Origin: Desulfatiglandales bacterium | GTDB taxonomy: Bacteria; Desulfobacterota; DSM-4660; Desulfatiglandales; Desulfatiglandaceae | Assembly: GCA_963662465.1 (NCBI GenBank) | Contig: OY759599.1 | Location: 4,005,403 to 4,037,402, forward strand | Reading direction: 5' to 3' | DNA length: 32,000 bases | Part shown: positions 8,650 through 23,259 of the stretch, piece by piece | Position numbering within the stretch: position 1 is the first letter of the stretch | Layout: each line of letters begins with the position of its first letter | The notes under the pieces: model-generated | The model's input: the letters and a program-made list of their open reading frames with translations, nothing else | Told to the model about the DNA's origin: nothing | Databases searched by the model: none | Position numbers and translations under genes: made by a program

Positions 8650-8650
8650 T

Positions 8651-9625: not shown

Positions 9626-9641
9626 GAGAGAATTCTCCTTA

Positions 9642-10391: not shown

Positions 10392-10514
10392 TTTTTCTCC
10401 GCTGTTAGCGGCTGGATTCTTACACATTCACTCTGAGAGTTCATCTCTCACATTCATAACGTATTGCATTAAATAGTATTTTTTTGAACCGCAGAATATC
10501 GAACAAGGAATAAT

Positions 10515-10677: not shown

Positions 10678-13038
10678 CTATTTTTCCTTTTCTTCCTTTG
10701 CCTGAATGGCCTTGAACACCCGCTCGGGCGTCAGGGGCAACTCCTGAATCCTTACGCCGGTCGCATCGTAGAGCGCATTCAGAATAGCGGGAATGGTGGG
10801 CATAATGGCCCCTTCCCCCACCTCCTTGGCCCCAAAGGGACCATTGGGTTCATTGCTTTCCACAATGATGGCATTCACATTGGGCATATCCAGGGCCGTG
10901 GCAATCTTGTATTCACCCAGATTTGCATTCAGGATTTTGCCCTTATCATCGAATTTCACTTCCTCAAACATGGCCTCGCCCAATCCCATGGAAAGCGACC
11001 CCTGCATCTGGGCTTCCACGGAGGTACGGTTGATGGCGAAACCACAGTCGTGGGCATCGGTCATACGATCGATGGTAATCTTCCCCGTGCCCTTGTCCAC
11101 GGTGACTTCCACCACCTGAGCGGAGGGTCCATAGGCCGGAGAAGTGCCCACCGCGGCGCCCTTGAACTTACCCCCCAGCTCCCCGGGTTTATAACTGCCG
11201 GTCCCTACCATGGACCCCCGTGTCAAATAAGCGATCCGGGCAGCCTCCTTGAAGGTGAGCGGTTCATCCGAACCCGGATTATCAAAAAAGCCCCGATGCT
11301 CCTTGGCATAAAGGGTTCGAATGCCGCTGAAATCAGGGGTTTCACCCTTAAACACGATGAATCCGTTTTTGATGTCCATCTGATCCACCGGCACTTTCAG
11401 CTTTTCACCCAGCACGTTCAGCACCTGGGACTTTAAATCCTCAGCGGCGCTCTTGGTGGCATGCCCCGTCATGAGGGTCTGACGGCTGGAATAGGCGCCC
11501 AGGTCCACGCTATAGTCCGTATCCCCGGAAGAAACCTTAATGTGATCCAGCGGCACCCCCAGGGCCTCGGCGGCAATCATGCCCATGGTGGTATCGCTTC
11601 CCTGGCCGATTTCAGCGCTTCCGGTCAAAACATGGGCCGTTCCCCCGTCCTCGTTCAACTTAATCACCACGGTGGAATGGGCTGTTTCCGATCGGTAAAT
11701 GGGATACCCCGCGCCTGAAACAAAGAAGCCCGTGGCAATGCCGATCCCTTTTCCCTCGGGCATTTTTCCCTTTTTCTCATTCCATTTGGACCCGTCTTTT
11801 ACGGCTTGGATACATTCTTTCATGCCGAAACTGCTGGTATTGAAGTCGTTACAGGTAATATCGCCCGCTTCCATGGAGTTTTTCATTCTGATCTCCACGG
11901 GGTCCATGCCCAACTCTTCGGCAATGAAATCAAGCTGCTGTTCCCAGGCAGCACGTGCCACGACCCCGCCATGGCCGCGCTGGGCCCCGCAGGCAGGCCG
12001 GTTGGTGAAATATCGATAGCCGTCATACTTCATATTGGGCAGCCGGTAGGGCGCCCCCAGAAGGGAACCCGCATAGTAAACGGTAGCAATCCCGAAACTG
12101 CTATAAGCGCCCCCTTCCAGGGAACATTCGTTGGTCAAAGCCATGAGGGTGCCGTCTTTTTTGACGCCGGTGGTCAACGTATGCTTGAACTGATGCCTGG
12201 CCCTGGAAAACAGAAAGACCTGTTCGCGAGTAAAATTCATTTTCACCGGTTTGCCGGTCTTCATGGAAAGGAGGCACGATGCCAGTTCCATGGAATTGGT
12301 GCCGGCCTTGGGTCCGAAACCGCCGCCCACATAGGGCTTTTTCACCCGAACCTTGCCCACCGGAATGCCCAGCACCATCGCCACAATCCGCATGATATAG
12401 TGGGGGACCTGGGTGGATGAATGGAGGGTTAAATACCCGTTGTAGTCAAAATCCGCCACCACGCCATTGGGCTCCAGGAAAGCGCCGTCCTGTCTTTTGT
12501 TCAAAAAGGTATCGGTTCGAATGAGGTCGCACTGAGCAAAGCCTTCCGCCACATTTCCGAATTCCTGATGGACTTCCGCACAGAGATTTCCGGGATACTT
12601 ATCATGGAGTTGCGGCGCGCCTTCCTTCATGGCGTCTTCCACCGTAAACACCGCCGGCAGTTCCTCATATTCCACGTCGATCAAAGACACGGCTTCAAGC
12701 GCCGTTTCCATATCCACCGCGGCAACGGCTGCAATTTCATCGCCGATATATCGCGCCCGGTCCTTTACAAAGAGTGTTTCGTCGTATCGTGCGGGACTGA
12801 CGCCATAGGGCGTCATGCCCGCATCTTCAGCGGTCACCACTGATTTCACCCCGGGAAGTTTCCGGGCTTTGGAAGTGTCGATATTGCGGATCCCGGCGTG
12901 GGCCAGGGGGCTCTGCAACAAAGCGCCGTAGAGCATCCCGGGCAGTTTTATGTCATCCACATACATGGCGCGCCCAGTGGCCTTGGCAGGGGCATCCAGC
13001 CGGGGCGCACGTCCATTGATTACATGATATTCGGTCAT
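10678..13038 (-). CDS. Xanthine dehydrogenase/aldehyde oxidase family, molybdopterin-binding large subunit
   Basis: 786 aa, the typical length and look of CoxL/XdhB/HcrA-type subunits (GGGFG, ...AHDCGFAINR..., ...GAKEVGEG...). It is the third gene of an FAD / FeS / Moco operon. Confidence 0.9.
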   Translation of the reverse strand: MTEYHVINGRAPRLDAPAKATGRAMYVDDIKLPGMLYGALLQSPLAHAGIRNIDTSKARKLPGVKSVVTAEDAGMTPYGVSPARYDETLFVKDRARYIGDEIAAVAAVDMETALEAVSLIDVEYEELPAVFTVEDAMKEGAPQLHDKYPGNLCAEVHQEFGNVAEGFAQCDLIRTDTFLNKRQDGAFLEPNGVVADFDYNGYLTLHSSTQVPHYIMRIVAMVLGIPVGKVRVKKPYVGGGFGPKAGTNSMELASCLLSMKTGKPVKMNFTREQVFLFSRARHQFKHTLTTGVKKDGTLMALTNECSLEGGAYSSFGIATVYYAGSLLGAPYRLPNMKYDGYRYFTNRPACGAQRGHGGVVARAAWEQQLDFIAEELGMDPVEIRMKNSMEAGDITCNDFNTSSFGMKECIQAVKDGSKWNEKKGKMPEGKGIGIATGFFVSGAGYPIYRSETAHSTVVIKLNEDGGTAHVLTGSAEIGQGSDTTMGMIAAEALGVPLDHIKVSSGDTDYSVDLGAYSSRQTLMTGHATKSAAEDLKSQVLNVLGEKLKVPVDQMDIKNGFIVFKGETPDFSGIRTLYAKEHRGFFDNPGSDEPLTFKEAARIAYLTRGSMVGTGSYKPGELGGKFKGAAVGTSPAYGPSAQVVEVTVDKGTGKITIDRMTDAHDCGFAINRTSVEAQMQGSLSMGLGEAMFEEVKFDDKGKILNANLGEYKIATALDMPNVNAIIVESNEPNGPFGAKEVGEGAIMPTIPAILNALYDATGVRIQELPLTPERVFKAIQAKEEKEK

Positions 13039-13041
13039 TGT

Positions 13042-13512
13042 TTATCTCCCTTCACTCACGTCCTTGATGGATTCCACAATCTTCTGATATCCGGTACATC
13101 TGCAGAGATTCCCGGATATGGCCGTCCGGATCTCCAGTTCATCAGGTTTGGCATTTTTATCCAGAAGGCTTTTGGCGGAGAGCAGCATACCAGACGTACA
13201 AAATCCGCACTGAATAGCGCCGTTTTCAATGAATTTTGCCTGCAAGGGGTGCAGACCGTCCTCCGTCTCCAGACCCTCCACCGTGGTAATCTCCTTGCCC
13301 GAAGCCTGAACAGCCAGCACCAGACAGGAGTTGACGGCTTTTCCATTCATAAGTACGGTGCATGAACCGCAATCTCCCAATTCACATCCTTTTTTTGTTC
13401 CCGTCAGTAAAAGCTCTTCCCTGAGAAGGTCCGCCAAGGTCATATTAGGCGCCGCGGCCAACTCATATTCCTTGCCGTTTATGGTAAGGCAGATCATCTT
13501 TTTCATGGTCAT
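13042..13512 (-). CDS. [2Fe-2S]-binding small subunit of XDH-family enzyme
   Basis: 156 aa with both cluster motifs: CELGDCGSCTV and QCGFCTSGM...CRCTGY. Confidence 0.95.
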   Translation of the reverse strand: MTMKKMICLTINGKEYELAAAPNMTLADLLREELLLTGTKKGCELGDCGSCTVLMNGKAVNSCLVLAVQASGKEITTVEGLETEDGLHPLQAKFIENGAIQCGFCTSGMLLSAKSLLDKNAKPDELEIRTAISGNLCRCTGYQKIVESIKDVSEGR

Positions 13513-13583: not shown

Positions 13584-14462
13584 CTATGCGTTGCGCGCAC
13601 GGTCATAGGCTTTGGCTAAAGCCCTTCGGGTCAATTCCTTGACCATAGCCCGCTTGTAGTCGGCGGACGCCCTGAAATCATCGATAGGCCTGCTATCCAT
13701 GGCCGCGGCCGCTCCCGCCGCCAGAAAAAGAGCATCGGAAGGCTTTTCCCCCAGAAGGGTTTTTTCAGCGGATGGGGCCAAGAGCGGCGTAGGCCCTACG
13801 GAGCCCATTACAACCCGCGCGGCTTTAATGGGACCATCAGCACCATCAAGGGTTATGGTAACCGCCACGTTCACCAGGGAGATCTCCAGGGCTTCCCGGA
13901 TACCCAGTTTGAGATAGGCACTCCCGGAATAGGCTTCCGGTTTTGAAAGCACGATGGCTTCAAGGATCTCCGAAGACGTTATCACGGTCCGGCCCGGCGC
14001 CTGAATGAAATCCGCCAATGCCACAGTGCGTTCACCATCGCTGCTTTTTAAAACGGCCTTTGCCCCATAGGCGATCAGGGACGGCGGGAAATCCGCGGCC
14101 GGTCTTGCGGATACCAGGTTTCCACCGATGGTGGCAAGATTCCGGATCAGCGGCGAGCCCAGCTTGGACGCCCCTTCCGCCAACGCCGGGAAATCCCCTT
14201 TGACCACATCCGATTCCGCAATTTCGGACGCTTTGACGCACGCCCCGATCCGCAGGGTTCCGTTTGAAGGCCCCAGTTGGGCCAGCAATTCGACCCGATC
14301 CAGTGATACCAAATGCTCCGGCGTCAACAGTTTCTTTTTCATGTTGACGAACAAATCAGTGCCGCCGGCAAGGGTTTTGGCCTTTTCGCCCAATTCGCCA
14401 ACCATCCGGCAGGCCTCTTCGACCGTTATCGGCTCATGGAATTCAAATCTTGGTAAAAGCAT
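13584..14462 (-). CDS. FAD-binding medium subunit of XDH-family enzyme (CoxM/XdhA-like)
   Basis: I prefer ATG 14462 (AGGAGGGG SD), giving 292 aa. LAGGTDL and ATIGGNL FAD-binding motifs are present. There are only two Cys in the whole protein. Confidence 0.9.
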   Translation of the reverse strand: MLLPRFEFHEPITVEEACRMVGELGEKAKTLAGGTDLFVNMKKKLLTPEHLVSLDRVELLAQLGPSNGTLRIGACVKASEIAESDVVKGDFPALAEGASKLGSPLIRNLATIGGNLVSARPAADFPPSLIAYGAKAVLKSSDGERTVALADFIQAPGRTVITSSEILEAIVLSKPEAYSGSAYLKLGIREALEISLVNVAVTITLDGADGPIKAARVVMGSVGPTPLLAPSAEKTLLGEKPSDALFLAAGAAAAMDSRPIDDFRASADYKRAMVKELTRRALAKAYDRARNA

Positions 14463-14578
14463 TTTCCCCTCCTGATTTTCTTGGGACTTCAACACGCTTG
14501 TCCCGGTTTATGTTGAAACGACCCAAGCGCCATCACACGCTTAAACCGTTCTGCATCGTGAACCCAAATTTCCCTGGA

Positions 14579-14702: not shown

Positions 14703-14732
14703 CAACGACAAAAGTTCAGCGAGGTGAACGCT

Positions 14733-15503
14733 ATGGCCGGAAAATATCAAGCCCCCTCCGTCAGGAAGGCATTTCACATGCTCAGGCTCATATCCAAAGC
14801 CAACCAGGGGTTGGGGATCAGCCACCTGGCAAACCGCATGGAGATCAGCAAGGGAACGGTTCACGGCATTATCAGCGCCCTGGAAGATCTGGGCGCTCTC
14901 ATCAGGGATCCTTCCTCAAAAAAATATACCCTTGGCCCTACGCTTTTTGAACTGGGAAAATCCGCTTATGCCGAGCTTGACCTGCGAGACCTTGCCCGGC
15001 AACCCATGGAAAGACTGATGCAGCAGACCAGCACATCGGTCTTCGTGGGAATTCCGAACGGGGACCGCGTCACCATTCTGGACGTCGTCGAATCCAACCG
15101 GAATCTTAAGATCACAGCCCCCCGCGGGAGTACCGTGCCTTTTCTGGCCGGCGCCATCGGAAAAATTTTCCTGGCAGCCATGGATGAGGAAAAAGCCTTA
15201 AATATCATTAATAAAAATGGGATTCCAAGGTTTACGGAAAACACCATTACGGACCCGGAGCAGTATCTCCTTCACATCCGACGCGCCAGGCAAGAGGGGT
15301 ATGCGGACGACGACGAAGAGTATATCGCCGGCGTCCGTGCCGCGGCGGCCCCCATCATGGGAAAACAAGGCATATTGTCGGCCATCTGGGCGGTAGGGTT
15401 TAAAACGGCCCTTGACGATGAAAAAATGTCGGACCTGATCAACGCGATCCAGGAAGCAGCTCAGGAAATCAACGCCCGGGTCAGGGAACACCCACTGCTA
15501 TAG
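14733..15503 (+). CDS. IclR family transcriptional regulator
   Basis: ATG 14733 has a GAGG 8 nt upstream; the track's GTG 14724 is an alternative. HTH LGISHLANRMEISKGTVHGIISAL, followed by an IclR-type effector domain. Confidence 0.9.
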   Translation: MAGKYQAPSVRKAFHMLRLISKANQGLGISHLANRMEISKGTVHGIISALEDLGALIRDPSSKKYTLGPTLFELGKSAYAELDLRDLARQPMERLMQQTSTSVFVGIPNGDRVTILDVVESNRNLKITAPRGSTVPFLAGAIGKIFLAAMDEEKALNIINKNGIPRFTENTITDPEQYLLHIRRARQEGYADDDEEYIAGVRAAAAPIMGKQGILSAIWAVGFKTALDDEKMSDLINAIQEAAQEINARVREHPLL

Positions 15504-15586: not shown

Positions 15587-16132
15587 TTACCCCTCCCACC
15601 GTCTGAACAGATCATGCTCAATTCCCATGTAATCAAAGACCTTGCCGATGGTTTGGTCAATAATATCCTGAATGGTTTTGGGTTGATGGTAAAATGAAGG
15701 TACGGGGGGCAGAATATGCGCCCCCATGTCCGCCGCCATGGTCATCAGCCGGAGATGCCCCTTGTGAAGGGGGGTCTCCCTGACCACCAGAACCAGCTTT
15801 CGACCCTCTTTCAAATTGACATCCGCGGCCCGAACCAGCAAATTGCTGGTGTATGAATTGGCAATGCCGGAAAGGGTCTTGATGGTACAGGGAACCACCA
15901 CCATGCCGCAGGTCAAAAAAGAACCGCTGGCCAGTGCCGCGCCCACATCCCGGTCCTCATACACCTTATCCGCCATGGCTTCCACCTCGCCGGCAGTGTA
16001 TTCCGTCTCGATCTCGATGTTTCGCCTTCCGGAGTCGGAAATAATGAGATGGGTTTCAAAATCCGTTTCCCTGAGCAAACCGAGCATTCTCACGCCATAT
16101 ATGACGCCGCTTGCACCGGCAATCCCCACCAC
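15587..16132 (-). CDS. ubiX: UbiX-family flavin prenyltransferase (prFMN synthase); start codon uncertain
   Basis: RLVVGIAGASGVIYGVRML..., VVPCTIKTLSGIANSYTSNLLVRAADV and VRETPLHKGHLR are classic UbiX blocks. The first 45 codons of the track ORF (to 16273) read through a terminator hairpin and a repeat array. There is no in-frame ATG near the conserved N-terminus. Candidate starts are GTG 16132, GTG 16129 or CTG 16135. Confidence 0.85.
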   Translation of the reverse strand: MVGIAGASGVIYGVRMLGLLRETDFETHLIISDSGRRNIEIETEYTAGEVEAMADKVYEDRDVGAALASGSFLTCGMVVVPCTIKTLSGIANSYTSNLLVRAADVNLKEGRKLVLVVRETPLHKGHLRLMTMAADMGAHILPPVPSFYHQPKTIQDIIDQTIGKVFDYMGIEHDLFRRWEG

Positions 16133-16140
16133 CAGCCTTT

Positions 16141-16221
16141 TGGATTGATGATTGTTGATTGTTGATTGTTGATTGATGATGCGCCCCCCCTTTTGGATTG
16201 TTGACTGTTGATTGATGATTG
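16141..16221. repeat. Duplicated module of tandem heptamers ATTG(A/T)TG, each module flanked by TTTTGG
   Basis: Block 1 at 16144-16178 has 5 heptamers. Block 2 at 16197-16217 has 3 heptamers (one is ACTGTTG). On the mRNA (minus) strand this reads (CANCAAT)n-CCAAAAGG twice, and the array contains no G. Confidence 0.85.
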
Positions 16222-16227
16222 CCCTAC

Positions 16228-16273
16228 AAGAAAAACCTAAAAGCGTGCCTGAACGAGGTTTTCGTTCAGGCAC
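16228..16273 (-). terminator. Rho-independent terminator after the UPF0261 gene
   Basis: Perfect 12-bp stem GTGCCTGAACGA / TCGTTCAGGCAC (16245-16256 / 16262-16273) with a 5-nt loop. On the minus strand it is followed by GCTTTTAGGTTTTTCTTG. It starts 6 nt after the stop at 16280. Confidence 0.75.
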
Positions 16274-16279
16274 ACCATA

Positions 16280-17503
16280 TCAAAAAATCTTCAACGCGAC
16301 ATCAATAACCGCTTCAGCGAAGGCCGGATCCTCCATATTGGCATCCACCTCCGTGATGGGAATGTTCGGATTCAACTTCTCTCGGAGTACCGCTGTAAAT
16401 ACCCGGTCTTCCTCCGGATCGAAAGTGGCGTTTCCCGGATAATCCGCCCCGGACCAACCCTTTTGGGGCACCATCACCCGCACCGGCCCTTTCGCCCGGT
16501 TCAGTTTTTCCGCAAATGCCGCCGCTACCTGTTTCAACTCGTCAGGAGAAAGCCTGATCCAGGTACGGAGTTTATCCAGGTCATATTTCCTGCGCTCATG
16601 GTATTCGGGTTTGTATTTGCGTTTGGAAGGGGTCATATGATTGACGCTGCAGGTGGAAATGATCTGCGGCACGCCCGCGTTGCCGGCGGCCTCCATCCGG
16701 TGAGGGCCCGCATCCCTCATGAACCCGAAGAGATGTTCGCCCACGCCTCCCGGCGCCAGATCGATCACCCCCTGAAAAAGGCCTGCCGCCATCATTTCTT
16801 CCATGGCGCGATCGCTGATGCCGGCCGCTGAAAAACCGGTTACCTGGTAGCCTTTCCCTTCCAGGGCCTTTCGAACCGAACTGGCGCACTGCTCGCAGGG
16901 CCCCAGCATGGTCATGGCAATGGATTTTGCCGTTTCAGCCCGGGATGATGTCACCACACTCTGAAGCATACCGGCCAGGGCGCAGGCGGCCCGGTCCATG
17001 ACATTTTTCAAGAGATCCGTCACCCCTGCTATTTCGATGACCGAATGAAACAGGATGATATCCCCTGTGCCGATGTACCGGGTGGAGAGCCCGGGTAGCG
17101 CCGCTGTTGAGGAAATCATGAGCTTGGGAAGACCAAAGGGGAGGGACCGCATGACTTCGGTGGCCATCAGACTTCCGGTGGACCCCCCCATGGCAATCAC
17201 CCCATGCAGCTTCCCCTGGGCAAACAGGTCGCCTGCGATTTTGGACGCCCCTTTAATGGTAATATTCGTGTTTTTAGCGCGATCCCTGGAGGCGTGTATC
17301 TCTTCCAGACTGCTCCCCCCGGCTTCGGCAACCTGCGCCGGGGTAATATCCGCCGGAGATGCCCCTTTCCCCCGCATGGAAATATCCATGAGCAGGGGGG
17401 TAACCCCAAGGGACAAAATCTTGTCCCTCAGGTACAGGGTCTCAACGCCTTTGGTATCCAGGGTGGAAATAATCAAGGCTGTTTTCGGGTTTGAATTTTC
17501 CAT
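16280..17503 (-). CDS. UPF0261 / Tm-1-like ATP-binding domain protein
   Basis: About 407 aa. The N-terminus ALIISTLDTKGVETLYLRDKI...GVIAMGGSTGSLMAT matches my recollection of the UPF0261 (Tm-1 N-terminal) family. The ATG at 17503 shares its A with the ligase TGA (TGATG). Confidence 0.7.
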   Translation of the reverse strand: MENSNPKTALIISTLDTKGVETLYLRDKILSLGVTPLLMDISMRGKGASPADITPAQVAEAGGSSLEEIHASRDRAKNTNITIKGASKIAGDLFAQGKLHGVIAMGGSTGSLMATEVMRSLPFGLPKLMISSTAALPGLSTRYIGTGDIILFHSVIEIAGVTDLLKNVMDRAACALAGMLQSVVTSSRAETAKSIAMTMLGPCEQCASSVRKALEGKGYQVTGFSAAGISDRAMEEMMAAGLFQGVIDLAPGGVGEHLFGFMRDAGPHRMEAAGNAGVPQIISTCSVNHMTPSKRKYKPEYHERRKYDLDKLRTWIRLSPDELKQVAAAFAEKLNRAKGPVRVMVPQKGWSGADYPGNATFDPEEDRVFTAVLREKLNPNIPITEVDANMEDPAFAEAVIDVALKIF

Positions 17504-19158
17504 CAACCCTGCTCCGCCTCGACTTTTTCTTTAATCATCTTTTTCAATGTTTCCTTGTTGACCTTGCCGGAATCCCCCACCGCCGGGAATTCGGCCACCA
17601 CTTCCAGACGTTCCGGGAGTTTAAACATGGCCAGTTGCTTTTCTTTCAAAAAAGCCAGCATTTCATCAAAGGTAAAGGTTTCACCCGGCTTGGGAATCAC
17701 GTAAGCGGCGCACTTCTCTCCCATGGCCCGATCCGGATACCCCACAATGGCCACGGATGAGACCTTGGGATGCTCATTGAGCAGACCTTCCACTTCCGCG
17801 GGATAGATGTTCTGACCGCCGCGAATGATCATATCCTTGGCACGACCCATGATCCAGAGGCAGCCCTGGTCGAAACACACGATGTCTTCGGTGGTACACC
17901 ATCCGTCTTCATCAAACACCGTGGCCGTCAATTCCTCGTCCCGGTAATATCCGGCCGGTGCGTGGGGGCCTCTTAAATAGAGAATTCCCGGATCGCCCTC
18001 GGGCACCACATTCCCCTCTTCATCCACAAGACGCACCTTGTTGCCGGGGAGCATTCGGCCCACGGTCCGCCGCCTGAGTTCCTTGGAATCTTCCACGCTG
18101 CAACCGGAGACAGACCCCTTGTCCTGGGTGCCCAGGTCGCTGGTAATACTGGCCCCGAAAGCCTCTTCCGCTTCTTCCGCCACCTGGGGAGACAGATATC
18201 CGCCGGCAGACCGAATAAACCGCAGGGAACTCAGATCATATTTTTTAACATCCGCTTCCAGCATCCGCACCAGATGGGTGGGCACCACGCCGATGGCCGT
18301 GGCTTTTTCCTTCTCGATGAGGGCCAGTGCCCCTTCGGGTGTAAATTCCTCAAGCATGACGGTCTTGGCGCCGGCAATGGGGGCCGCAAAATAGGTGAGG
18401 GTTCCGGCTGCCCCACCCGCATGGGGCGCTATGGCCATGGTGATGTCATCTTTATTGAGATTCCAGATGCCCACCCGACCCTTGGAGGTGCAAACCCGGG
18501 GCGCTGTCGGCCATTCCACCAGCTTGGGAATTCCCGTAGTGCCGCTGGTGGTGGTCAACAATGCCACATCCCATTTGGCATCCAACCGTCGGTCGTTTAA
18601 GACCGCTTCGTCTATGGGCTTTTGCATCCGTTCTTCCACCATTTGAACCACCGAATAGGTCCCTTCCGGGGCGCCTTCGGGAACCTTATCGTCAAACAGG
18701 AAAAAGTATTTCAAGTGAGAGAAGCGTTTCTGAAGATCCTTGTACATGTCCAAATAATTGAATTTGTGATAGACTTCCGGGATTACCACGGCCGCGGCCT
18801 CGGTTTTCTCCAACATGTACTCCAACTCCCGCTGTCGCAGATAGGGATAAACCGTGAGAGAGATGAGGCCCGCCCGTTCACAGGCAACCCGGGCCAGGAA
18901 TCCGTAAACGCTGTTGGGGGACTGGATAATGACCCTGGCCGATTTGGGAATGCCCATTTCCACCCAGGACATGGCCATGGCATCCACCATCTTTTTGGCC
19001 TGGGCCCAGGTCACGCGATATTTGGAATCCACCAGCGCTTCCTGGTCGGGCATTTCCCTGGCGTTGCGATCATAAAAATCATAGAATAATTCTTCGGTCC
19101 AGTGTCCGTCATCTAAGAATTCCTGCACCATTTTTTCTTTATATCGAATCGGTTTCAT
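17503..19158 (-). CDS. AMP-forming acyl-CoA/aryl-CoA ligase (adenylate-forming superfamily)
   Basis: 551 aa. AMP-binding signature LLTTTSGTTGIPK, GYYRDEE, WCTTEDI and IIRGGQNIYPAEVE. AGGGAGG SD. Confidence 0.9.
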   Translation of the reverse strand: MKPIRYKEKMVQEFLDDGHWTEELFYDFYDRNAREMPDQEALVDSKYRVTWAQAKKMVDAMAMSWVEMGIPKSARVIIQSPNSVYGFLARVACERAGLISLTVYPYLRQRELEYMLEKTEAAAVVIPEVYHKFNYLDMYKDLQKRFSHLKYFFLFDDKVPEGAPEGTYSVVQMVEERMQKPIDEAVLNDRRLDAKWDVALLTTTSGTTGIPKLVEWPTAPRVCTSKGRVGIWNLNKDDITMAIAPHAGGAAGTLTYFAAPIAGAKTVMLEEFTPEGALALIEKEKATAIGVVPTHLVRMLEADVKKYDLSSLRFIRSAGGYLSPQVAEEAEEAFGASITSDLGTQDKGSVSGCSVEDSKELRRRTVGRMLPGNKVRLVDEEGNVVPEGDPGILYLRGPHAPAGYYRDEELTATVFDEDGWCTTEDIVCFDQGCLWIMGRAKDMIIRGGQNIYPAEVEGLLNEHPKVSSVAIVGYPDRAMGEKCAAYVIPKPGETFTFDEMLAFLKEKQLAMFKLPERLEVVAEFPAVGDSGKVNKETLKKMIKEKVEAEQG

Positions 19159-19179
19159 GTGACGCCTCCCTAATAATCA

Positions 19180-19215
19180 GGTAATGGGGTAATCGGTAAT
19201 GAGGTAATGGGTAAT
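19180..19215. repeat. Five tandem GGTAAT units at alternating 8/7-bp spacing
   Basis: GGTAAT at 19180, 19188, 19195, 19203 and 19210. On the mRNA strand this is ATTACC x5, ending 8 nt upstream of the ligase SD. Confidence 0.85.
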
Positions 19216-19263
19216 GGGCGACAGGCCCGAAATGCACGACCCGTCGCCCATATGTCGGAAATC

Positions 19264-20673
19264 CTAAAATCCCAGCTCGGACCAGCGGCCCTTGACCTTG
19301 GCGACCATATCCGGATCCAGAACAATGGGGATGGGTTTGTCTTTCCATTCATAGGGGATGGTGGCATCGAGAAGCAACCTGCCCGTAATCTCCCGGCTCT
19401 CAATGGGCAGAGAGGGATCCAGAGGTGTGGATCGGCCCCGTTTGATGACCTGGCTTCGGTTGGGCTGGAACCGGAAACTCAAGGCGTACATGACCCTGGG
19501 GATATCCCAGGCATCGATGTCGTCGTCCACCACGATAACGGTCTTGAGACCGTAGGCCCCCATTTCCGTCGAAATGGCTGCGGTCAGCACCTGATCGGCG
19601 TGACCCGGGTACTTGGTCTCCACGGAGATAATGGCCAGAAACCGTCCGGAACCTTCGGGCGGGCAATAAACGCTCTTGATCCCGGGGATCCGCATCTCAT
19701 CGGTCAACTGCTGCCACAGGGTGGCGCCGTAGGAAAGGGCCATGACCATATGGGTGTCGGTGACGGCCCGACCCACCGTGGTGGAATACATGATGGGATT
19801 GTCGCGGTGGGTGATGCACTTGATGTCCATAAAGTTTCTGGGATCAGTCCCCACGCCGGAATAGTATCCGGTGTACTCGCCGAAGGGGCCTTCATCCATG
19901 AATTTTTCGGGATCACACAAGCCTTCCAGTACGATCTCCGCATGGGCGGGAATAGGAAGATCCACGGTTTCTCCCTGGACCACTTCGCAGGCCTCGCCGC
20001 GAATGGAACCATAAACATCGTATTCGCTGATGTTGGCCGAAACCCTGGCAGCGCCCAGGATAAACAGGAGAGGATCGCAGCCAATGATGGAAGCGCAGGG
20101 CATGGGTTTTCCCATTTTCTGGTATTTTTTCAGCATCTGGTCCGCATGTTTCCCTTTAATAAACTGGGTTCCGATTTTGTTTTTGCCCAGCAACTGGCTT
20201 CTGTAGGTTCCCAGGTTCACCCACCCGGAATCGGGATCCTTGGTGATAATAAAATGGGCCGTCCCGATAAATCGTCCACCGTCCAGGGGGAAGAAATGGG
20301 GCACGGGAAACTTGTAAAGATCCACATCGTCGCCCATGATGATATTCTGTTTGCAGGGCGCGTCTTTTTTCTCCACCATTTTGGGAGGAATGGGGTTTCG
20401 GCCCATGTTCACCCACCCTCGCAGAATCTCCGGAAGCGGCGTATCCTTGGGCATTCCCAGGATGAGGGCCAATTTCTGGGCGGAGGTGCAGGTACTGGTA
20501 ATCACCGGGGTATCATAGTCCTTGACATTTTCAAAGAGAAGCGCCGGACCTTGGGCTTCCTCATTGAGCTTGGCAATGTGGCTTAACTCGAGGTTCCAGT
20601 CCACTTCCGCGGTGATTCTCTTCAGTTCGCCTTCCTTTTCGGCCAGTTCAATAAAATCTCGCATGCTTTTCAT
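19264..20673 (-). CDS. UbiD-family (prFMN-dependent) decarboxylase/carboxylase
   Basis: 469 aa. Family signature EGPFGEYTGYY and N-terminal MRDFIELAEKEGELKRI. AGGGAGG SD. The large + ORF 19207..20586 is its antisense shadow. Confidence 0.9.
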   Translation of the reverse strand: MKSMRDFIELAEKEGELKRITAEVDWNLELSHIAKLNEEAQGPALLFENVKDYDTPVITSTCTSAQKLALILGMPKDTPLPEILRGWVNMGRNPIPPKMVEKKDAPCKQNIIMGDDVDLYKFPVPHFFPLDGGRFIGTAHFIITKDPDSGWVNLGTYRSQLLGKNKIGTQFIKGKHADQMLKKYQKMGKPMPCASIIGCDPLLFILGAARVSANISEYDVYGSIRGEACEVVQGETVDLPIPAHAEIVLEGLCDPEKFMDEGPFGEYTGYYSGVGTDPRNFMDIKCITHRDNPIMYSTTVGRAVTDTHMVMALSYGATLWQQLTDEMRIPGIKSVYCPPEGSGRFLAIISVETKYPGHADQVLTAAISTEMGAYGLKTVIVVDDDIDAWDIPRVMYALSFRFQPNRSQVIKRGRSTPLDPSLPIESREITGRLLLDATIPYEWKDKPIPIVLDPDMVAKVKGRWSELGF

Positions 20674-21149: not shown

Positions 21150-22112
21150 ATGCTGAATTTCAACCAACTCCGCATCTTTTACCATGCAGCCAGGAATTTG
21201 AATTTCACCGCCGCCGCCAGGGATCTTTTCATCACCCAGCCTGCTGTAACCGCTCAAATTAAACTGCTGGAAGAATATTGCAGTTTGAAACTATTCAGAA
21301 AAAAAGGTCGCGGCGTCTATTTGACCGATGAGGGCCGGGCACTTTTTGAATACACCAAACATGTATTTGATTACGAAAAGGAGATCGAGTTCGCCATCGA
21401 GGAAATGCGGGAATTGAAACGGGGCATCCTCAGACTGGGAACCACCAAGACCTATGCACGGTACTTCATGCCCTTTCTGCTGACGCGATTCCATCAGACC
21501 TATTCCGACATTCGCATCCACCTGGACGAAGGCAGCTCTCAGGCCATGGTGCAAAGCCTCATTGATTTTAAAAACGAAATCGTCATTATCGCCAAAATCA
21601 CAAGCCATCCAGGGGTCCGCTTTCTGCCCCTCAGCCGGGAAGGCATTGTGGTAATCGCCCATCCCGACCATCCCCTGGCCGGAAAAGCCGCCATTTCAAC
21701 GGAGGAACTGGCAGAGGAGAGAATCATTATGAAAGAAGGGGGCTCCGGAACAAGGCATCTCATTGACGACCTGTTCATCCGAGCCAACCGGACGCCCAAC
21801 ATCGTCATGGAAACCAGCAACACGGAATTCATCAAACTGGAAGTCCAGCGGGGAGAAGGGATCGCCTTTCTGGTGGAATCCGCGGTTTTGCTGGAACTGG
21901 AACAAGGGCTATTGACATCTCTTCCCATCCATGATCAGACCCTCTTTCTGAATGTGAGCATCGCTTATCTGGAAGATCAACAACTCTCCCCCCCTTCCAG
22001 GGCTTTCCTCGAAACCCTGACAAACCTGAGCGGCAACGACATCCCCGCTTTGGGCATCGGCGCCCTGATGACGAAGATCCGAACCCATCGCGACGGCCTG
22101 ACGGCAACATGA
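21150..22112 (+). CDS. LysR family transcriptional regulator
   Basis: 320 aa. N-terminal LNFNQLRIFYHAARNLNFTAAARDLFITQPAVTAQIKLLE, followed by a periplasmic-binding-like effector domain. Confidence 0.9.
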   Translation: MLNFNQLRIFYHAARNLNFTAAARDLFITQPAVTAQIKLLEEYCSLKLFRKKGRGVYLTDEGRALFEYTKHVFDYEKEIEFAIEEMRELKRGILRLGTTKTYARYFMPFLLTRFHQTYSDIRIHLDEGSSQAMVQSLIDFKNEIVIIAKITSHPGVRFLPLSREGIVVIAHPDHPLAGKAAISTEELAEERIIMKEGGSGTRHLIDDLFIRANRTPNIVMETSNTEFIKLEVQRGEGIAFLVESAVLLELEQGLLTSLPIHDQTLFLNVSIAYLEDQQLSPPSRAFLETLTNLSGNDIPALGIGALMTKIRTHRDGLTAT

Positions 22113-23190: not shown

Positions 23191-23259
23191 AAAGGTTTTC
23201 CGGCACGGGGCAACAAAAGACCTTTTTGTCGGACCGTCATGATATCAAGGAGCATCCGA

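What the first reader, a model, noticed from the sequence alone, without database searches (positions are those of the whole stretch)
15587..20673. ubiD-family / AMP-ligase / UPF0261 (Tm-1-like ATP-binding) / ubiX block: candidate aryl-carboxylate activation and (de)carboxylation module with an uncharacterised fourth partner
Seen in the sequence:
- Four co-directional minus-strand genes.
- A UbiD-family enzyme (EGPFGEYTGYY).
- An adenylate-forming ligase (TSGTTGIPK).
- A UPF0261 protein whose ATG shares a base with the ligase stop (TGATG at 17501-17505).
- UbiX.

Established knowledge:
- UbiD enzymes need prFMN made by UbiX.
- Ligase + UbiD-like + UbiX sets carry out phthaloyl-CoA and isophthaloyl-CoA decarboxylation in anaerobes.
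- UbiD-like enzymes also act as carboxylases in anaerobic phenol, benzene and naphthalene degradation.

Inference:
- To my knowledge UPF0261/Tm-1-like ATP-binding proteins have no assigned role in any of these systems.
- The translational coupling to the ligase suggests a stoichiometric partner. It could be an ATP-dependent activation, maturation or phosphorylation step.
- The substrate cannot be read from the sequence.
Basis: partly seen in the sequence, partly recalled or inferred. Interest (0 to 1): 0.7.

Follow-up and report, generated by a model that had tools for sequence, protein, structure and literature searches.

The report
Anaerobic phenol-carboxylation gene cluster, unassigned kinase-like partner
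The four genes are the conserved core of the gene cluster that sulfate-reducing bacteria use to turn phenol into benzoyl-CoA without oxygen; here the usual phenol-activating enzyme is missing, and the cluster keeps an ATP-binding protein whose role nobody has assigned but which can now be tested directly.

Summary
Four co-directional minus-strand genes encode a UbiD enzyme, an aryl-acid adenylating ligase, a UPF0261 protein (TGATG stop/start overlap with the ligase) and UbiX.

The UbiD passes NCBI's cutoff for the phenylphosphate carboxylase beta model, not the quinone UbiD model. A 4-hydroxybenzoyl-CoA-reductase-like Mo enzyme follows on the same strand. The same order, UbiD-ligase-UPF0261-UbiX, is annotated in the published phenol-induced "phe" cluster of Desulfatiglans anilini, where the UPF0261 protein is about 50-fold phenol-induced but was never discussed.

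Across 80 species-level genomes:
- a ligase lies upstream of the UPF0261 gene in 66/67 loci;
- UbiX lies downstream in 57/59;
- phenylphosphate synthase genes are present in 39/46.

The window's own Desulfatiglandales clade lacks the synthase genes in the cluster.

The only characterised UPF0261 enzyme, MarK (2025), is an ADP-forming phenolic kinase. This protein keeps MarK's ATP-site lysine but replaces two conserved pocket histidines (Ser225, Leu309) and gains invariant Cys/His residues. It is a distinct subfamily, not a MarK orthologue.

Best reading: a phenol to 4-hydroxybenzoyl-CoA to benzoyl-CoA module in which UPF0261 is a phosphotransferase acting on a phenolic intermediate. Its substrate is unresolved. 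This is a new variant of a known system.

The parts
19264..20673 (-). UbiD-family, prFMN-dependent (de)carboxylase of the phenylphosphate carboxylase beta (PpcB) type, 469 aa
   Evidence: Carries Pfam UbiD_N, UbiD and UbiD_C. Scores 508.9 bits against TIGR02724 phenyl_P_beta, above the cutoff of 468.95; every other UbiD equivalog model falls far below its cutoff. The EGPFGE motif is at 19861-19893. It is 90-93% identical to UbiDs that sit directly after PpsA-PpsB in L003, L012, L021 and L034.
17503..19158 (-). Aryl-acid adenylating / CoA ligase, 551 aa; probable 4-hydroxybenzoate-CoA ligase
   Evidence: Carries AMP-binding and AMP-binding_C. No NCBIfam equivalog reaches its cutoff among the 25 best of 104 matching models shown. 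The closest solved structures are DhbE and salicylate-AMP ligases (E 5e-67). The TSGTTGIPK, GRAKDMIIRGG and SGKVNK motifs are present. The like-placed D. anilini gene H567DRAFT_02058 is phenol-induced and was described as 'function unknown'.
16280..17503 (-). UPF0261 / Tm-1-like ATP-binding protein, 407 aa; member of a ligase-linked subfamily distinct from MarK
   Evidence: Matches PF06792 and PF23189 and NF002674 at 369 bits, cutoff 335. Matches PDB 9MPY (MarK) at E 7e-57. A Foldseek search of an AlphaFold2 model returns 9MPY and Tm-1 as the top hits. Lys18 corresponds to MarK Lys16. Ser225 replaces MarK His219 and Leu309 replaces His304. Cys203, Cys206, Cys285 and His289 are near-invariant in 83 orthologues.
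16242..16276 (-). Terminator-like hairpin (15-bp stem, 8 G-C pairs, T-rich tail) starting 4 nt after the UPF0261 stop codon
   Evidence: It is absent from the spacers of L001, L004 and L008.
15587..16132 (-). UbiX flavin prenyltransferase (about 181 aa from GTG 16132; start codon uncertain)
   Evidence: Scores 258 bits against NF004685, cutoff 188. The Pfam match starts at codon 45 of the long ORF. The canonical ATG of relatives is replaced by ATCAATCAACA-type repeats.
14724..15503 (+). IclR-family regulator, opposite strand, between UbiX and the reductase genes
   Evidence: Carries HTH_IclR and IclR_C. It occupies the same position in L001, L004, L007 and L008.
13584..14495 (-). FAD-binding medium subunit of a 4-hydroxybenzoyl-CoA-reductase-like molybdenum enzyme
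   Evidence: Carries FAD_binding_5 and CO_deh_flav_C. It scores only 122 bits against TIGR03195, cutoff 405. The sequence contains only two cysteines.
13042..13512 (-). [2Fe-2S] small subunit of the same enzyme
   Evidence: Carries Fer2 and Fer2_2. It scores 173 bits against TIGR03193, cutoff 258.
10678..13038 (-). Molybdopterin large subunit; its best model is 4-hydroxybenzoyl-CoA reductase alpha
   Evidence: Scores 885.8 bits against TIGR03194 (cutoff 994.55), with the next-best model, XdhA, at 599 bits. These genes follow UbiX directly in L005, L006 and other loci; Hcr-like genes occur in 16 of 46 loci with enough downstream sequence.
9404..10427 (-). ThiF/MoeB-type adenylyltransferase (9642-10427) and ThiS/MoaD-like protein ending in Gly-Gly (9404-9691); probably supply sulfur for the molybdenum cofactor
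   Evidence: ThiF. ThiS. The same pair follows the reductase genes in L001.
21150..22112 (+). LysR-family regulator, divergent from the UbiD gene. In most relatives PpsA-PpsB lie between this gene and UbiD; here they do not.
   Evidence: for the family assignment; for the position in relatives.

Best explanation
The block is the core of an anaerobic phenol-to-benzoyl-CoA catabolic cluster of a Desulfatiglandales bacterium.

Proposed pathway:
- The PpcB-type UbiD enzyme, with prFMN made by UbiX, carboxylates a phenolic substrate para to the hydroxyl group, giving 4-hydroxybenzoate.
- The DhbE-like ligase converts 4-hydroxybenzoate to 4-hydroxybenzoyl-CoA.
- The downstream Mo/FAD/2Fe-2S enzyme removes the hydroxyl group, giving benzoyl-CoA.

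This pathway assignment rests on model scores and on the like-ordered, phenol-induced D. anilini cluster. No activity was measured here.

The UPF0261 protein is inferred to be an ATP-dependent phosphotransferase that acts on the phenolic oxygen of one pathway intermediate and works together with the ligase. There are two versions.

(a) Preferred for this window: it is an ADP-forming phenol kinase that makes the aryl phosphate consumed by the carboxylase. In this lineage the phenylphosphate synthase genes are gone from the cluster, so it would supply the ATP coupling at half the cost (ATP to ADP, instead of ATP to AMP + Pi).

(b) It phosphorylates the carboxylation product, 4-hydroxybenzoate or its CoA ester. 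That would trap the product or turn the hydroxyl into a better leaving group for the reductase.

My estimates: cluster identity about 0.85; UPF0261 as a phenolic-oxygen phosphotransferase about 0.5, split roughly 0.25-0.3 for (a) and 0.2-0.25 for (b).
For: Cluster identity:
- The UbiD passes the phenylphosphate carboxylase beta equivalog cutoff (508.9 bits against 468.95). The alpha, VdcC, menaquinone-type and E. coli UbiD models all fail their cutoffs.
- The Hcr-alpha model is by far the best hit for the Mo subunit.
- In 80 species-level genomes the usual order is LysR | PpsA PpsB UbiD ligase UPF0261 UbiX [Hcr]. Counts: ligase upstream 66/67, UbiX downstream 57/59, UbiD upstream 54/56, PpsA+PpsB 39/46.
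- In D. anilini the like-ordered genes H567DRAFT_02059/58/57/56 are phenol-induced. For the UPF0261 protein 02057 the replicate-1 areas were 0 / 5.0e7 / 5.3e7 / 2.5e9 for 4-aminobenzoate / aniline / benzoate / phenol (PMC7500099, PMC6114531).

UPF0261 role:
- The only characterised family member, MarK, transfers phosphate from ATP to phenolic OH groups and releases ADP (PMC12624787).
- The Asp-Thr-Lys ATP-site motif is kept: Lys18 in 83/83 orthologues.
- The fold matches MarK and Tm-1.
- A sister subfamily (46-47% identical) sits in UbiD-ligase-LMW-phosphatase-UPF0261 clusters in two of the three loci examined (L084, L085). Low-molecular-weight phosphotyrosine phosphatases (Pfam LMWPc) act on aryl phosphates, my own knowledge.
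- In D. anilini the protein is about 65 times more abundant than UbiX and within 3-7-fold of PpsA and PpcB. That fits a pathway enzyme, not a cofactor helper.
- D. anilini has no ppc-gamma homologue and no dedicated delta subunit. Carboxylase activity was never reconstituted there, and the authors state that the ATP cost is unexplained.

For version (a): the window clade (L001, L002, L004-L008) has no Pps genes in the cluster or anywhere in the 32 kb window, yet keeps UbiD, ligase, UPF0261 and UbiX intact at 82-99% identity.

For version (b):
- The link to the ligase is the most constant feature, and it holds even where no UbiD was found nearby (L024, L086).
- MarK prefers phenols with a para-carbonyl group and did not phosphorylate guaiacol.
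- The second D. anilini paralogue, 03869, is abundant in 4-aminobenzoate-grown cells along with its neighbouring ligase.
Against: - Two of the three pocket residues that the MarK authors report as more than 90% conserved are not kept. His219, which hydrogen-bonds the phenolic oxygen, is Ser in 79/83 orthologues. His304 is Leu in 83/83.
- Across 130 family representatives, His occupies these positions in 111 and 92 respectively. The acceptor, or even the chemistry, may therefore differ.
- In 39/46 related loci phenylphosphate synthase is co-encoded, so a second phenol kinase would seem redundant. The pocket residues do not differ between Pps-containing and Pps-less clusters.
- Pps genes may exist elsewhere in this genome. 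This could not be checked.
- Version (b) adds an ATP cost to an already expensive pathway.
- UPF0261 always lies next to UbiX, or next to an LpdD-type prFMN chaperone that precedes UbiX. That could instead point to a cofactor role.
- UPF0261 is the least conserved of the four proteins in 42/47 loci.
- Orthology to D. anilini 02057 rests on annotation, gene order and protein length (403 aa against 407).
- No enzyme activity was measured.
Confidence: 0.55

Rival explanations
1. UPF0261 serves the cofactor, not the substrate. It would belong with LpdD and UbiX and supply or process a phosphorylated precursor of prFMN. One possibility is making dimethylallyl monophosphate by phosphorylating prenol or by DMAPP + ADP phosphotransfer. 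Another is helping prFMN maturation without oxygen.
For: - UbiX lies downstream of the UPF0261 gene in 57/59 loci.
- In 20 loci the only gene between them is an LpdD-type prFMNH2 chaperone (PF21758; PDB 8PZH at E 8e-5).
- Desulfobacula-type loci continue with HAD phosphatases and a riboflavin-kinase fusion.
- L024 carries ligase-UPF0261-LpdD-UbiX with no UbiD nearby.
- Losing the aromatic-stacking His and the phenol-binding His would suit a small aliphatic acceptor.
- How strict anaerobes mature prFMN is an acknowledged open question (PMC10865409).
Against: - In L085, UbiX-LpdD lie at the far end of the operon. Both UPF0261 genes there (a sister-subfamily copy and a second, more distant paralogue, 34% identical to the window protein) follow the ligase and the LMW phosphatase.
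- The D. anilini ani cluster has a UPF0261 next to a ligase, while the only ubiX-like gene the authors report lies in the phe cluster.
- In D. anilini the UPF0261 protein is about 65 times more abundant than UbiX (2.5e9 against 3.9e7).
- In Desulfobacula-type loci a PpsC-like CBS protein, a catabolic component, sits between UPF0261 and UbiX, so gene order does not separate functional modules.
- In the window itself a strong terminator-like hairpin separates UPF0261 from UbiX.
- UPF0261 was not seen in the other UbiD/UbiX systems I read about.
Confidence: 0.12
2. UPF0261 takes part in the carboxylase step by removing phosphate. It would bind phenylphosphate made by Pps and pass the phosphoryl group to ADP or water, handing phenolate to the PpcB-type UbiD. 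It would thus replace the phosphatase-type (delta) and small (gamma) subunits of the Thauera enzyme, which Desulfobacterota lack.
For: - D. anilini has no ppc-gamma homologue. Its only delta-like gene is a KDO-8-P phosphatase located elsewhere and not detected as protein, and carboxylase activity could not be shown.
- UPF0261 co-occurs with Pps in 39/46 loci, so under this reading it is not redundant.
- Aryl phosphates have a higher group-transfer potential than ATP (my own knowledge: Fukami and Lipmann 1983, for phosphotyrosine). Transfer to ADP would therefore be downhill and would save energy.
Against: - Passing the phosphate on to ADP would remove the driving force that makes carboxylation irreversible.
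- The window clade and L033 have no Pps genes in the cluster to supply phenylphosphate.
- Sister clusters carry a separate LMW phosphatase as well as UPF0261, and Desulfobacula loci carry HAD phosphatases as well. The phosphatase role therefore seems to be filled by other proteins.
Confidence: 0.1
3. UPF0261 is a non-catalytic, nucleotide-binding partner or regulator of the ligase or carboxylase. The model is tomato Tm-1, which acts by ATP-bridged binding to another protein.
For: - Tm-1 works by binding, not by catalysis (PMC12624787).
- The residue thought to act on the phenolic oxygen in MarK is absent here.
- UPF0261 is the least conserved of the four proteins.
- The ligase-UPF0261 gene order is nearly universal.
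Against: - Conservation is still strong (67-95% identity), and many pocket-region residues are invariant, including a subfamily-specific Cys/His set.
- The protein is abundant at pathway-enzyme levels in D. anilini.
- Aryl-phosphate phosphatases occur next to the sister subfamily.
Confidence: 0.13
4. One reading: the ligase first makes an aryl-dicarboxyl-CoA, which the UbiD then decarboxylates, as in phthaloyl- or isophthaloyl-CoA decarboxylase systems.
For: The gene content (ligase + UbiD + UbiX) is formally the same, and the ligase has no equivalog assignment. Two family III CoA-transferase genes lie elsewhere in the window.
Against: - The UbiD meets the PpcB equivalog cutoff.
- Its 90-93% identical relatives sit directly behind phenylphosphate synthase genes.
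- A hydroxybenzoyl-CoA-reductase-like enzyme follows, which phthalate pathways do not need.
- The like-ordered D. anilini genes are induced by phenol.
Confidence: 0.03

Closest known systems
Desulfatiglans anilini 'phe' phenol-degradation cluster, H567DRAFT_02049-02059 (Xie et al. 2018, PMC6114531; 2020, PMC7500099)
   Same: The gene order and annotations match: ppc-beta (468 aa), 'DHB-AMP ligase' (552 aa), 'UPF0261 family' (403 aa), ubiX (193 aa), then the medium, small and large subunits of a CODH/Hcr-type Mo enzyme. All are more abundant in phenol-grown cells. Neither the ligase nor the UPF0261 protein was assigned a function.
   Different: D. anilini continues with pps-alpha, pps-beta and a phenylacetate-CoA-ligase-like gene. 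The window has none of these in 32 kb. The window also has an IclR gene between UbiX and the reductase genes, and a 1-base ligase/UPF0261 overlap. Identity to the D. anilini proteins could not be measured here.
Thauera aromatica phenylphosphate synthase / phenylphosphate carboxylase system (PpsABC, PpcABCD)
   Same: The same chemistry is expected: para-carboxylation of an activated phenol by a UbiD-type subunit, with a UbiX-like gene in the cluster, followed by CoA ligation and reductive dehydroxylation.
   Different: Here there is only a beta-type UbiD, with no alpha, gamma or phosphatase-type delta subunit and no Pps genes. The ligase is of the DhbE type. The reductase FAD subunit lacks the Cys-rich insertion. 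A UPF0261 protein is present; as far as I know Thauera has none in its cluster.
MarK (Saro_1862) of Novosphingobium aromaticivorans, PDB 9MPY (PMC12624787)
   Same: Both have the two-domain UPF0261 fold (E 7e-57; about 31-33% identity). The ATP-site Asp-Thr-Lys is conserved, as is the glycine of the acceptor pocket. Both sit in aromatic-catabolic clusters in which phosphorylation is linked to a carboxylation.
   Different: MarK His219, His304 and His348 are Ser, Leu and Ala here, and subfamily-specific Cys203, Cys285 and His289 have appeared. MarK works with a biotin-type carboxylase (AcvCDE homologues) in an aerobe on acetyl-substituted phenols. This protein works with a prFMN carboxylase and a CoA ligase in strict anaerobes.
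Desulfatiglans anilini 'ani' aniline cluster (H567DRAFT_03868-03872), together with the UbiD-ligase-LMW phosphatase-UPF0261 clusters found here (L084, L085)
   Same: A paralogous ligase and UPF0261 pair sits next to a PpcB-like UbiD and Pps-like kinase genes, and the proteins are induced by aniline and 4-aminobenzoate.
   Different: These belong to a different UPF0261 subfamily, 46-47% identical to the window protein in L084-L086. That 03869 itself belongs to it is a guess from its length only. An LMW phosphotyrosine-phosphatase gene lies between ligase and UPF0261 in L033, L078, L084 and L085, and UbiX is not adjacent.
Phthaloyl-CoA and isophthaloyl-CoA decarboxylase modules; AbcA-type benzene or naphthalene carboxylase clusters
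   Same: All combine a UbiD-family enzyme, UbiX and an aryl-CoA-forming enzyme in anaerobic aromatic degradation.
   Different: The order of reactions differs: here carboxylation comes before CoA ligation. The UbiD falls in the PpcB model, and a hydroxyl-removing Mo enzyme and, in relatives, Pps genes accompany it. UPF0261 was not mentioned in the papers on these systems that I read.

Membership tests
Phenylphosphate carboxylase beta subunit (PpcB; UbiD family) | Three UbiD domains and a score above the trusted cutoff of the equivalog model TIGR02724 | tested here: met
   Pfam UbiD_N, UbiD and UbiD_C are present. TIGR02724 scores 508.9 bits against a cutoff of 468.95. The alpha model scores 239 against 565, VdcC 321 against 650, and E. 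coli UbiD 254 against 788.
Phenylphosphate carboxylase beta subunit (PpcB; UbiD family) | Catalytic E-x4-E motif of prFMN decarboxylases (Glu277/Glu282 of A. niger Fdc1; from my own knowledge) | tested here: met
   EGPFGE is at aa 261-266. The Mn/K-binding and Arg residues were not checked.
Phenylphosphate carboxylase holoenzyme (Thauera type, alpha-beta-gamma-delta) | Partner subunits (a second UbiD-like alpha, a 10 kDa subunit, an 18 kDa phosphatase-type subunit) encoded alongside | tested here: not met
   There is no second UbiD, HAD or LMW phosphatase among the window ORFs that were scanned, and tblastn with HAD and LMWPc queries found nothing in the window.
Anaerobic phenol pathway via phenylphosphate | Phenylphosphate synthase genes (PpsA with a PEP-utilizers domain, PpsB with a PPDK_N domain) present with the carboxylase | tested here: not met
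   tblastn found none in the 32 kb window. They are present in 39/46 related loci and absent in L004-L008, L024 and L033. The rest of the genome could not be searched.
UPF0261 / Tm-1-like ATP-binding proteins | Both Pfam domains above cutoff and the two-domain fold of Tm-1 and MarK | tested here: met
   PF06792 scores 175 bits and PF23189 scores 223 bits, cutoff 27 for each. PDB 9MPY matches at E 7e-57 and 3WRY at E 1e-48. An AlphaFold2 model (mean pLDDT 77.7) returns 9MPY and 3WR* as the top Foldseek hits, E 1e-30 to 1e-26, TM about 0.5.
MarK-type multiple aromatic kinase | ATP-site lysine (MarK Lys16 / Tm-1 Lys20), the residue whose E-to-K change switched activity on | tested here: met
   Asp16-Thr17-Lys18 aligns with MarK Asp14-Thr15-Lys16. 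Lys is present in 83/83 orthologues.
MarK-type multiple aromatic kinase | Aromatic pocket residues Gly195, His219 and His304, reported as more than 90% conserved among MarK homologues | tested here: not met
   Gly201 is kept. His219 is replaced by Ser225 (79/83 orthologues) and His304 by Leu309 (83/83). Among 130 family representatives His occupies these columns in 111 and 92.
MarK-type multiple aromatic kinase | Co-location with acvCDEF/hpeCBAD-type (biotin-dependent) carboxylase and phosphatase genes | tested here: not met
   No such genes appear among the window ORFs scanned.
MarK-type multiple aromatic kinase | ATP-dependent, ADP-forming phosphorylation of a phenolic OH group | not testable with these tools
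   This needs the purified protein and HPLC-MS assays.
UbiX flavin prenyltransferase | Score above the cutoff of the UbiX family models | tested here: met
   NF004685 scores 258 bits against 188, and TIGR00421 scores 240 against 109. The start codon is uncertain.
Adenylate-forming aryl-CoA ligase | AMP-binding core and C-terminal domain with the phosphate-loop, hinge and catalytic-Lys motifs | tested here: met
   Pfam domains. The TSGTTGIPK, GRAKDMIIRGG and SGKVNK motifs are present. The nearest structures are DhbE and salicylate-AMP ligases.
4-hydroxybenzoate-CoA ligase (specific function) | A match to a curated equivalog, or a measured substrate | tested here: inconclusive
   No NCBIfam equivalog reaches its cutoff among the 25 best of 104 matching models shown; the best is 302 bits against 476. 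The function is inferred from context only.
4-hydroxybenzoyl-CoA reductase (HcrABC, Thauera type) | All three subunits above their equivalog cutoffs, and a [4Fe-4S]-binding insertion in the FAD subunit (from my own knowledge) | tested here: not met
   Alpha scores 886 bits against 995, gamma 173 against 258, beta 122 against 405. The FAD subunit has only 2 Cys. The alpha model is still clearly the best hit, so this is an Hcr-like enzyme and not an equivalog.

The most novel reading that the evidence does not exclude
The ligase-linked UPF0261 clade would be a new class of aryl-oxygen phosphotransferase that provides the ATP coupling for prFMN-dependent phenol carboxylation in strict anaerobes. 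In this Desulfatiglandales lineage it would have replaced phenylphosphate synthase altogether, so phenol activation costs one ATP to ADP instead of ATP to AMP + Pi. That would answer the question, raised in print, of how sulfate reducers can afford this pathway.
Probability: 0.25. Interest if true: 0.75.

Novelty: new variant of a known kind. Interest (0 to 1): 0.55.

Why it matters
Anaerobic phenol degradation in sulfate reducers and other strict anaerobes has two acknowledged gaps (PMC6114531):
- phenylphosphate carboxylase activity has never been reconstituted, and the subunits that do the dephosphorylation in Thauera are missing;
- the pathway's apparent cost of up to four ATP equivalents is hard to reconcile with the organisms' energy budget.

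A protein that is encoded in essentially every such cluster surveyed here, is strongly phenol-induced in D. anilini, belongs to a family just shown to contain an ADP-forming phenolic kinase, and has never been discussed, is the obvious candidate for the missing piece.

The Pps-less variant in this window is the natural test case. If the protein is the kinase, this lineage activates phenol at half the known cost. If it is not, it is a new accessory factor of a UbiD carboxylase. That would also interest groups trying to use these enzymes for CO2 fixation onto phenols.

The survey further defines a UPF0261 subfamily with a remodelled acceptor pocket, which widens the known scope of a large, barely characterised protein family.

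Tried and rejected
- Phthaloyl- or isophthaloyl-CoA decarboxylase reading: rejected on the PpcB model score, the Pps context in relatives and phenol induction in D. anilini.
- True quinone UbiD: rejected (254 bits against a cutoff of 788).
- MarK orthology: rejected because two of three conserved pocket residues are not kept.
- Translational coupling as a conserved feature: rejected. The 1-base overlap occurs only in L001, L002 and L004-L008.
- Two recent anaerobic benzene papers (PMC13101534, PMC13416013) were checked for the same cluster and are unrelated.
- The Geobacter genome paper gave no detail on UPF0261.
- Full-text searches linking Tm-1-like proteins with UbiD, or MarK with phenylphosphate, found nothing.
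- The D. anilini protein sequences could not be retrieved. Its locus was not among the 80 kept, and the cluster look-up gave no names. Orthology therefore rests on annotation, gene order and length.
- Extending the view beyond the window failed. Whether Pps genes exist elsewhere in this genome stays open.
- The MarK supplementary data (phenol and 4-hydroxybenzoate as substrates) are not held.
- Rfam and tRNA scans of the window found nothing.
- Promoter-like and terminator-like counts do not exceed the shuffled expectation. Only the 15-bp hairpin after the UPF0261 gene stands out.
- The AlphaFold2 model gave no coordinates, so whether Cys203, Cys206, Cys285 and His289 form a metal site could not be tested.

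Full report
**1. What is in the sequence.**

The window carries four co-directional minus-strand ORFs at the stated positions.
- A 469-aa UbiD-family protein (19264-20673) with all three Pfam UbiD domains.
- A 551-aa adenylate-forming ligase (17503-19158).
- A 407-aa protein (16280-17503) matching both UPF0261 domains (175 and 223 bits; cutoff 27).
- A UbiX protein ending at 15587.

The quoted motifs are at aa 261-271 of the UbiD and aa 204-212 of the ligase. The ligase TGA and the UPF0261 ATG share one base, reading GGTTGATGGAA on the minus strand.

One correction concerns UbiX. The ORF as drawn begins at a GTG inside a 15-bp hairpin, and homology starts only at codon 45. The ATG that close relatives use (ATGAAAAAAAGA...) has been replaced by ATCAATCAACA-type repeats. 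The protein most likely starts at GTG 16132 or 16129.

**2. The block is part of a larger unit.**

- Downstream on the same strand, after an opposite-strand IclR gene, lie the FAD, 2Fe-2S and molybdopterin subunits of a xanthine-dehydrogenase-family enzyme.
- The large subunit scores 886 bits against the 4-hydroxybenzoyl-CoA reductase alpha model. That is below the 995 cutoff but far above the next model (599 bits).
- ThiF/MoeB and a ThiS-like protein follow.
- Upstream is a divergent LysR gene.
- The whole arrangement recurs in the closest relatives: L001, L002 and L004-L008, at 82-95% UPF0261 identity. IclR is missing in L005 and L006, and L002 ends before ThiF. The best match is a Desulfatiglandales MAG.

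**3. Which UbiD this is.**

The protein scores 508.9 bits against NCBI's equivalog model for phenylphosphate carboxylase subunit beta, above the trusted cutoff of 468.95. It fails every other UbiD equivalog:

| Model | Score (bits) | Cutoff (bits) |
|---|---|---|
| PpcB (TIGR02724) | 508.9 | 468.95 |
| PpcA (alpha) | 239 | 565 |
| VdcC | 321 | 650 |
| Menaquinone type | 287 | 496 |
| E. coli UbiD | 254 | 788 |

The nearest solved structure is the phenazine-1-carboxylate decarboxylase PhdA (7PDA, E 1e-84). No phenylphosphate carboxylase was among the solved structures listed. I did not build a tree, because no reference sequences were available. The placement therefore rests on HMM scores and on context.

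**4. Comparative context.**

One scan of species-representative genomes returned 80 loci with UPF0261 orthologues at 67-95% identity. Most are labelled Desulfatiglandales, Desulfobacterales, Desulfobacula or Deltaproteobacteria, with a few Syntrophobacteraceae and one Acidobacteriota.

Mapping the window's proteins and the PpsA and PpsB of L003 onto them by tblastn gives a dominant order:

LysR(-) | PpsA PpsB UbiD ligase UPF0261 [LpdD-like or PpsC-like] UbiX [Hcr genes].

Counting only loci with enough flanking sequence:

| Feature | Loci |
|---|---|
| Ligase upstream of UPF0261 | 66/67 (62 directly adjacent) |
| UbiX within 2 kb downstream | 57/59 |
| UbiD upstream | 54/56 |
| PpsA and PpsB present | 39/46 |
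| Hcr-like genes present | 16/46 |

The seven Pps-less loci are L004-L008 (the window's clade), L024 and L033. The window itself has no Pps homologue anywhere in its 32 kb.

The 1-base stop/start overlap is confined to the window's clade. Elsewhere the ligase-UPF0261 gap runs from -8 to about +370 nt wherever the ligase is directly adjacent.

**5. The block has been seen before, but not explained.**

The phenol cluster of Desulfatiglans anilini (H567DRAFT_02049-02059; PMC6114531) is annotated in the same order:
- 02059, ppc-beta
- 02058, '2,3-dihydroxybenzoate-AMP ligase', 552 aa
- 02057, 'Uncharacterized protein, UPF0261 family', 403 aa
- 02056, ubiX-like
- 02055 and 02054, CODH medium and small subunits
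- an Hcr alpha-type subunit, which the paper places in the cluster
- 02052 and 02051, pps-alpha and pps-beta

In the proteome table of PMC7500099, the replicate-1 areas for 02057 are 0 / 5.0e7 / 5.3e7 / 2.5e9 for cells grown on 4-aminobenzoate / aniline / benzoate / phenol. This parallels the ligase (1.26e10 on phenol) and ppc-beta (1.8e10). UbiX reaches only 3.9e7.

The papers call the ligase's function 'unknown' and never mention 02057. They also report the following:
- No ppc-gamma homologue exists in the genome.
- The only delta-like gene is a KDO-8-P phosphatase located elsewhere and not detected as protein.
- Carboxylase activity could not be demonstrated.
- Phenylphosphate formation was measured only in crude extract, and the nucleotide product was not determined.

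A second UPF0261 (03869, 411 aa) lies between a PpsA-like gene and an acyl-CoA synthetase in the aniline cluster. It is present only in cells grown on 4-aminobenzoate or aniline.

I could not obtain the D. anilini sequences. Orthology therefore rests on annotation, gene order and protein length.

**6. What the UPF0261 protein is, and is not.**

In 2025 the first catalytic activity for this family was reported. MarK (Saro_1862) phosphorylates the phenolic OH of acetovanillone and related compounds with ATP and releases ADP (PMC12624787).
- MarK needs Lys16 in the N-terminal ATP site.
- The aromatic substrate binds in the C-terminal domain, contacted by Gly195, His219, His304 and His348.
- Gly195, His219 and His304 are more than 90% conserved among MarK homologues.

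The window protein matches MarK at E 7e-57. An AlphaFold2 model (mean pLDDT 77.7) finds MarK and Tm-1 as its top structural neighbours.

| MarK residue | Window residue | Frequency in 83 orthologues |
|---|---|---|
| Asp14-Thr15-Lys16 | Asp16-Thr17-Lys18 | Lys 83/83 |
| Gly195 | Gly201 | 82/83 |
| His219 | Ser225 | Ser 79/83 |
| His304 | Leu309 | Leu 83/83 |
| His348 | Ala353 | Ala 10/83, Val 72/83 |

In addition, Cys203, Cys206, Cys285 and His289 are each present in at least 81 of the 83 orthologues.

Among 130 full-length representatives of the wider family, the 225 column is His in 111 and the 309 column is His in 92. Cys at column 203 or 285 is rare, at 6 and 4.

Every other UPF0261 paralogue found in the 80 genome loci keeps the His219 equivalent. 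Some of them (L037, L056, L073) look fully MarK-like.

The protein therefore belongs to a distinct, narrow, ligase-linked subfamily. The ATP site is intact and the acceptor pocket is remodelled. It is not a MarK orthologue.

No TIM-barrel 'TBST' partner is present in the window. That partner is reported to co-evolve with UPF0261 (PMC5028733).

**7. Clues to its role.**

(i) A sister subfamily, 46-47% identical and also carrying Ser at position 225 and Cys203/Cys206, sits in two of the three loci examined (L084, L085) in clusters ordered UbiD, ligase, low-molecular-weight phosphotyrosine phosphatase, UPF0261. Those clusters occur with or without Pps. In L085, UbiX-LpdD lie at the other end of the operon. 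An aryl-phosphate phosphatase placed between the ligase and UPF0261 argues for chemistry on a phenolic oxygen.

(ii) The ligase link persists where no UbiD was found nearby, in L024 and L086.

(iii) In 20 loci the gene between UPF0261 and UbiX is an LpdD-type prFMNH2 chaperone (PF21758; PDB 8PZH at E 8e-5). In 14 loci it is a PpsC-like CBS protein. Gene order therefore does not cleanly separate a 'catabolic' module from a 'cofactor' module.

(iv) UPF0261 is abundant in D. anilini at pathway-enzyme level, about 65 times more abundant than UbiX.

(v) It is the least conserved of the four proteins in 42/47 loci, with a mean identity of 72.5% against 78-81% for the others.

(vi) In the window a strong terminator-like hairpin follows the UPF0261 gene directly and precedes UbiX. 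This groups UPF0261 transcriptionally with UbiD and the ligase.

**8. Mechanism.**

Supported by evidence:
- This is the phenol-carboxylation and 4-hydroxybenzoate-activation core, with an Hcr-like dehydroxylating enzyme downstream.

Inferred:
- UPF0261 is an ATP-dependent phosphotransferase acting on the phenolic oxygen of a pathway intermediate.

For this Pps-less cluster I favour an ADP-forming phenol kinase feeding the carboxylase.
- Aryl phosphates carry a higher group-transfer potential than ATP (my own knowledge: Fukami and Lipmann 1983, for phosphotyrosine).
- Such a kinase would therefore be slightly uphill. It could still be pulled by an irreversible carboxylation-plus-dephosphorylation step and by the ligase.
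- It would cost one ATP equivalent instead of two.

The main alternative within the same idea is phosphorylation after carboxylation, of 4-hydroxybenzoate or its CoA ester.
- This explains the constant ligase link.
- It avoids redundancy with Pps.
- It fits MarK's preference for para-carbonyl phenols.
- It fits the adjacent phosphatases in the sister clusters.

Rival explanations are a prFMN or DMAP supply role, a phosphate-removing role inside the carboxylase, and a non-catalytic nucleotide-binding partner. None is excluded.

**9. Novelty and verdict.**

The cluster type is known and the window is a new member of it. Three things are new:
- The recognition that a specific UPF0261 subfamily is a near-universal, unassigned component of these clusters.
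- The finding that it differs from MarK exactly at the acceptor site.
- The existence of a lineage that has dropped the phenylphosphate synthase genes from the cluster while keeping everything else.

I rate this a new variant of a known kind, of moderate-to-good interest. It turns two stated open questions about anaerobic phenol metabolism into a short list of direct assays.

Noticed in passing
window 16133-16279 (minus strand), between the UPF0261 and UbiX genes: The spacer holds a 15-bp terminator-like hairpin (16242-16276), then two to three copies of a 33-nt repeat built from ATCAATCAACA-type units. This insertion has removed the ATG that starts UbiX in L001, L004 and L008. L005 carries a similar repeat insertion. 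UbiX may start at a GTG with a short Shine-Dalgarno spacing, and may be translated or transcribed at a reduced level.
   Followed up: partly
window 19159-19263, spacer between the UbiD and ligase genes: The spacer holds four or five copies of GGTAATGGG (CCCATTACC on the coding strand) at 8- and 15-nt spacing, plus a 12-nt inverted repeat (19214-19225 / 19240-19251). There is no Rfam match and the function is unknown.
   Followed up: partly
L037 455-1738, L056 279-1544, L073 674-1876, and other paralogues in L003, L012, L013, L025, L030 and L069: Many phenol clusters carry a second, distant UPF0261 paralogue (31-38% identical), usually beyond the divergent LysR gene. The L037, L056 and L073 copies keep the full MarK-like pocket (Gly-Thr-Thr, His219, His304). 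They may be genuine phenolic kinases sitting beside Pps.
   Followed up: partly
L026 11206-11607, L024 11359-11766, L033 9500-9907, L038 5605-5997 (20 loci in all): A 130-135-aa LpdD-type prFMNH2 chaperone gene (PF21758) lies between UPF0261 and UbiX in many relatives. It is absent from the window and its clade.
   Followed up: yes
L033 6285-6896, L084 8454-8999, L085 8452-8988, also L064 and L078: A low-molecular-weight phosphotyrosine-phosphatase gene sits between the ligase and a UPF0261 gene in a sister type of UbiD cluster. The C-x5-R motif is visible in L033. L033 (Acidobacteriota) has three UPF0261 paralogues and no Pps.
   Followed up: partly
L040 11239-11958, 12965-13654 and 14007-15152: Desulfobacula-type clusters insert a PpsC-like CBS-domain protein between UPF0261 and UbiX. 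They continue with a HAD phosphatase and a fusion of a CTP-dependent riboflavin kinase with a HAD domain, which suggests local FMN or prenyl-phosphate supply for prFMN.
   Followed up: partly
window 13584-14495: The FAD subunit of the Hcr-like enzyme has only two cysteines. It cannot carry the extra [4Fe-4S] loop of the Thauera 4-hydroxybenzoyl-CoA reductase beta subunit, so the electron input must differ.
   Followed up: no
window 2853-4100 (-), 23188-24450 (+), 24514-25782 (+), 27362-28492 (-): Two family III CoA-transferases, a thiolase and an Old-Yellow-Enzyme-type flavin oxidoreductase flank the cluster. The transferase at 23188-24450 has no counterpart in L001 between the YceG and thiolase genes. 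An ATP-independent route for CoA activation may exist alongside the ligase.
   Followed up: no
window 8290-8845 (-): A VapB antitoxin (8651-8845) and PIN-domain VapC toxin (8290-8706) pair lies in an AT-rich stretch (about 40% G+C) between the ThiF/ThiS genes and an HD-GYP-type response regulator. L001 shows no such pair at the corresponding position.
   Followed up: partly
window 19207-20586 (+): A 459-aa ORF runs antisense to the UbiD gene. Its low-complexity, Gly/His/Arg-rich translation suggests it is an artefact of the coding strand's composition and not a gene.
   Followed up: no
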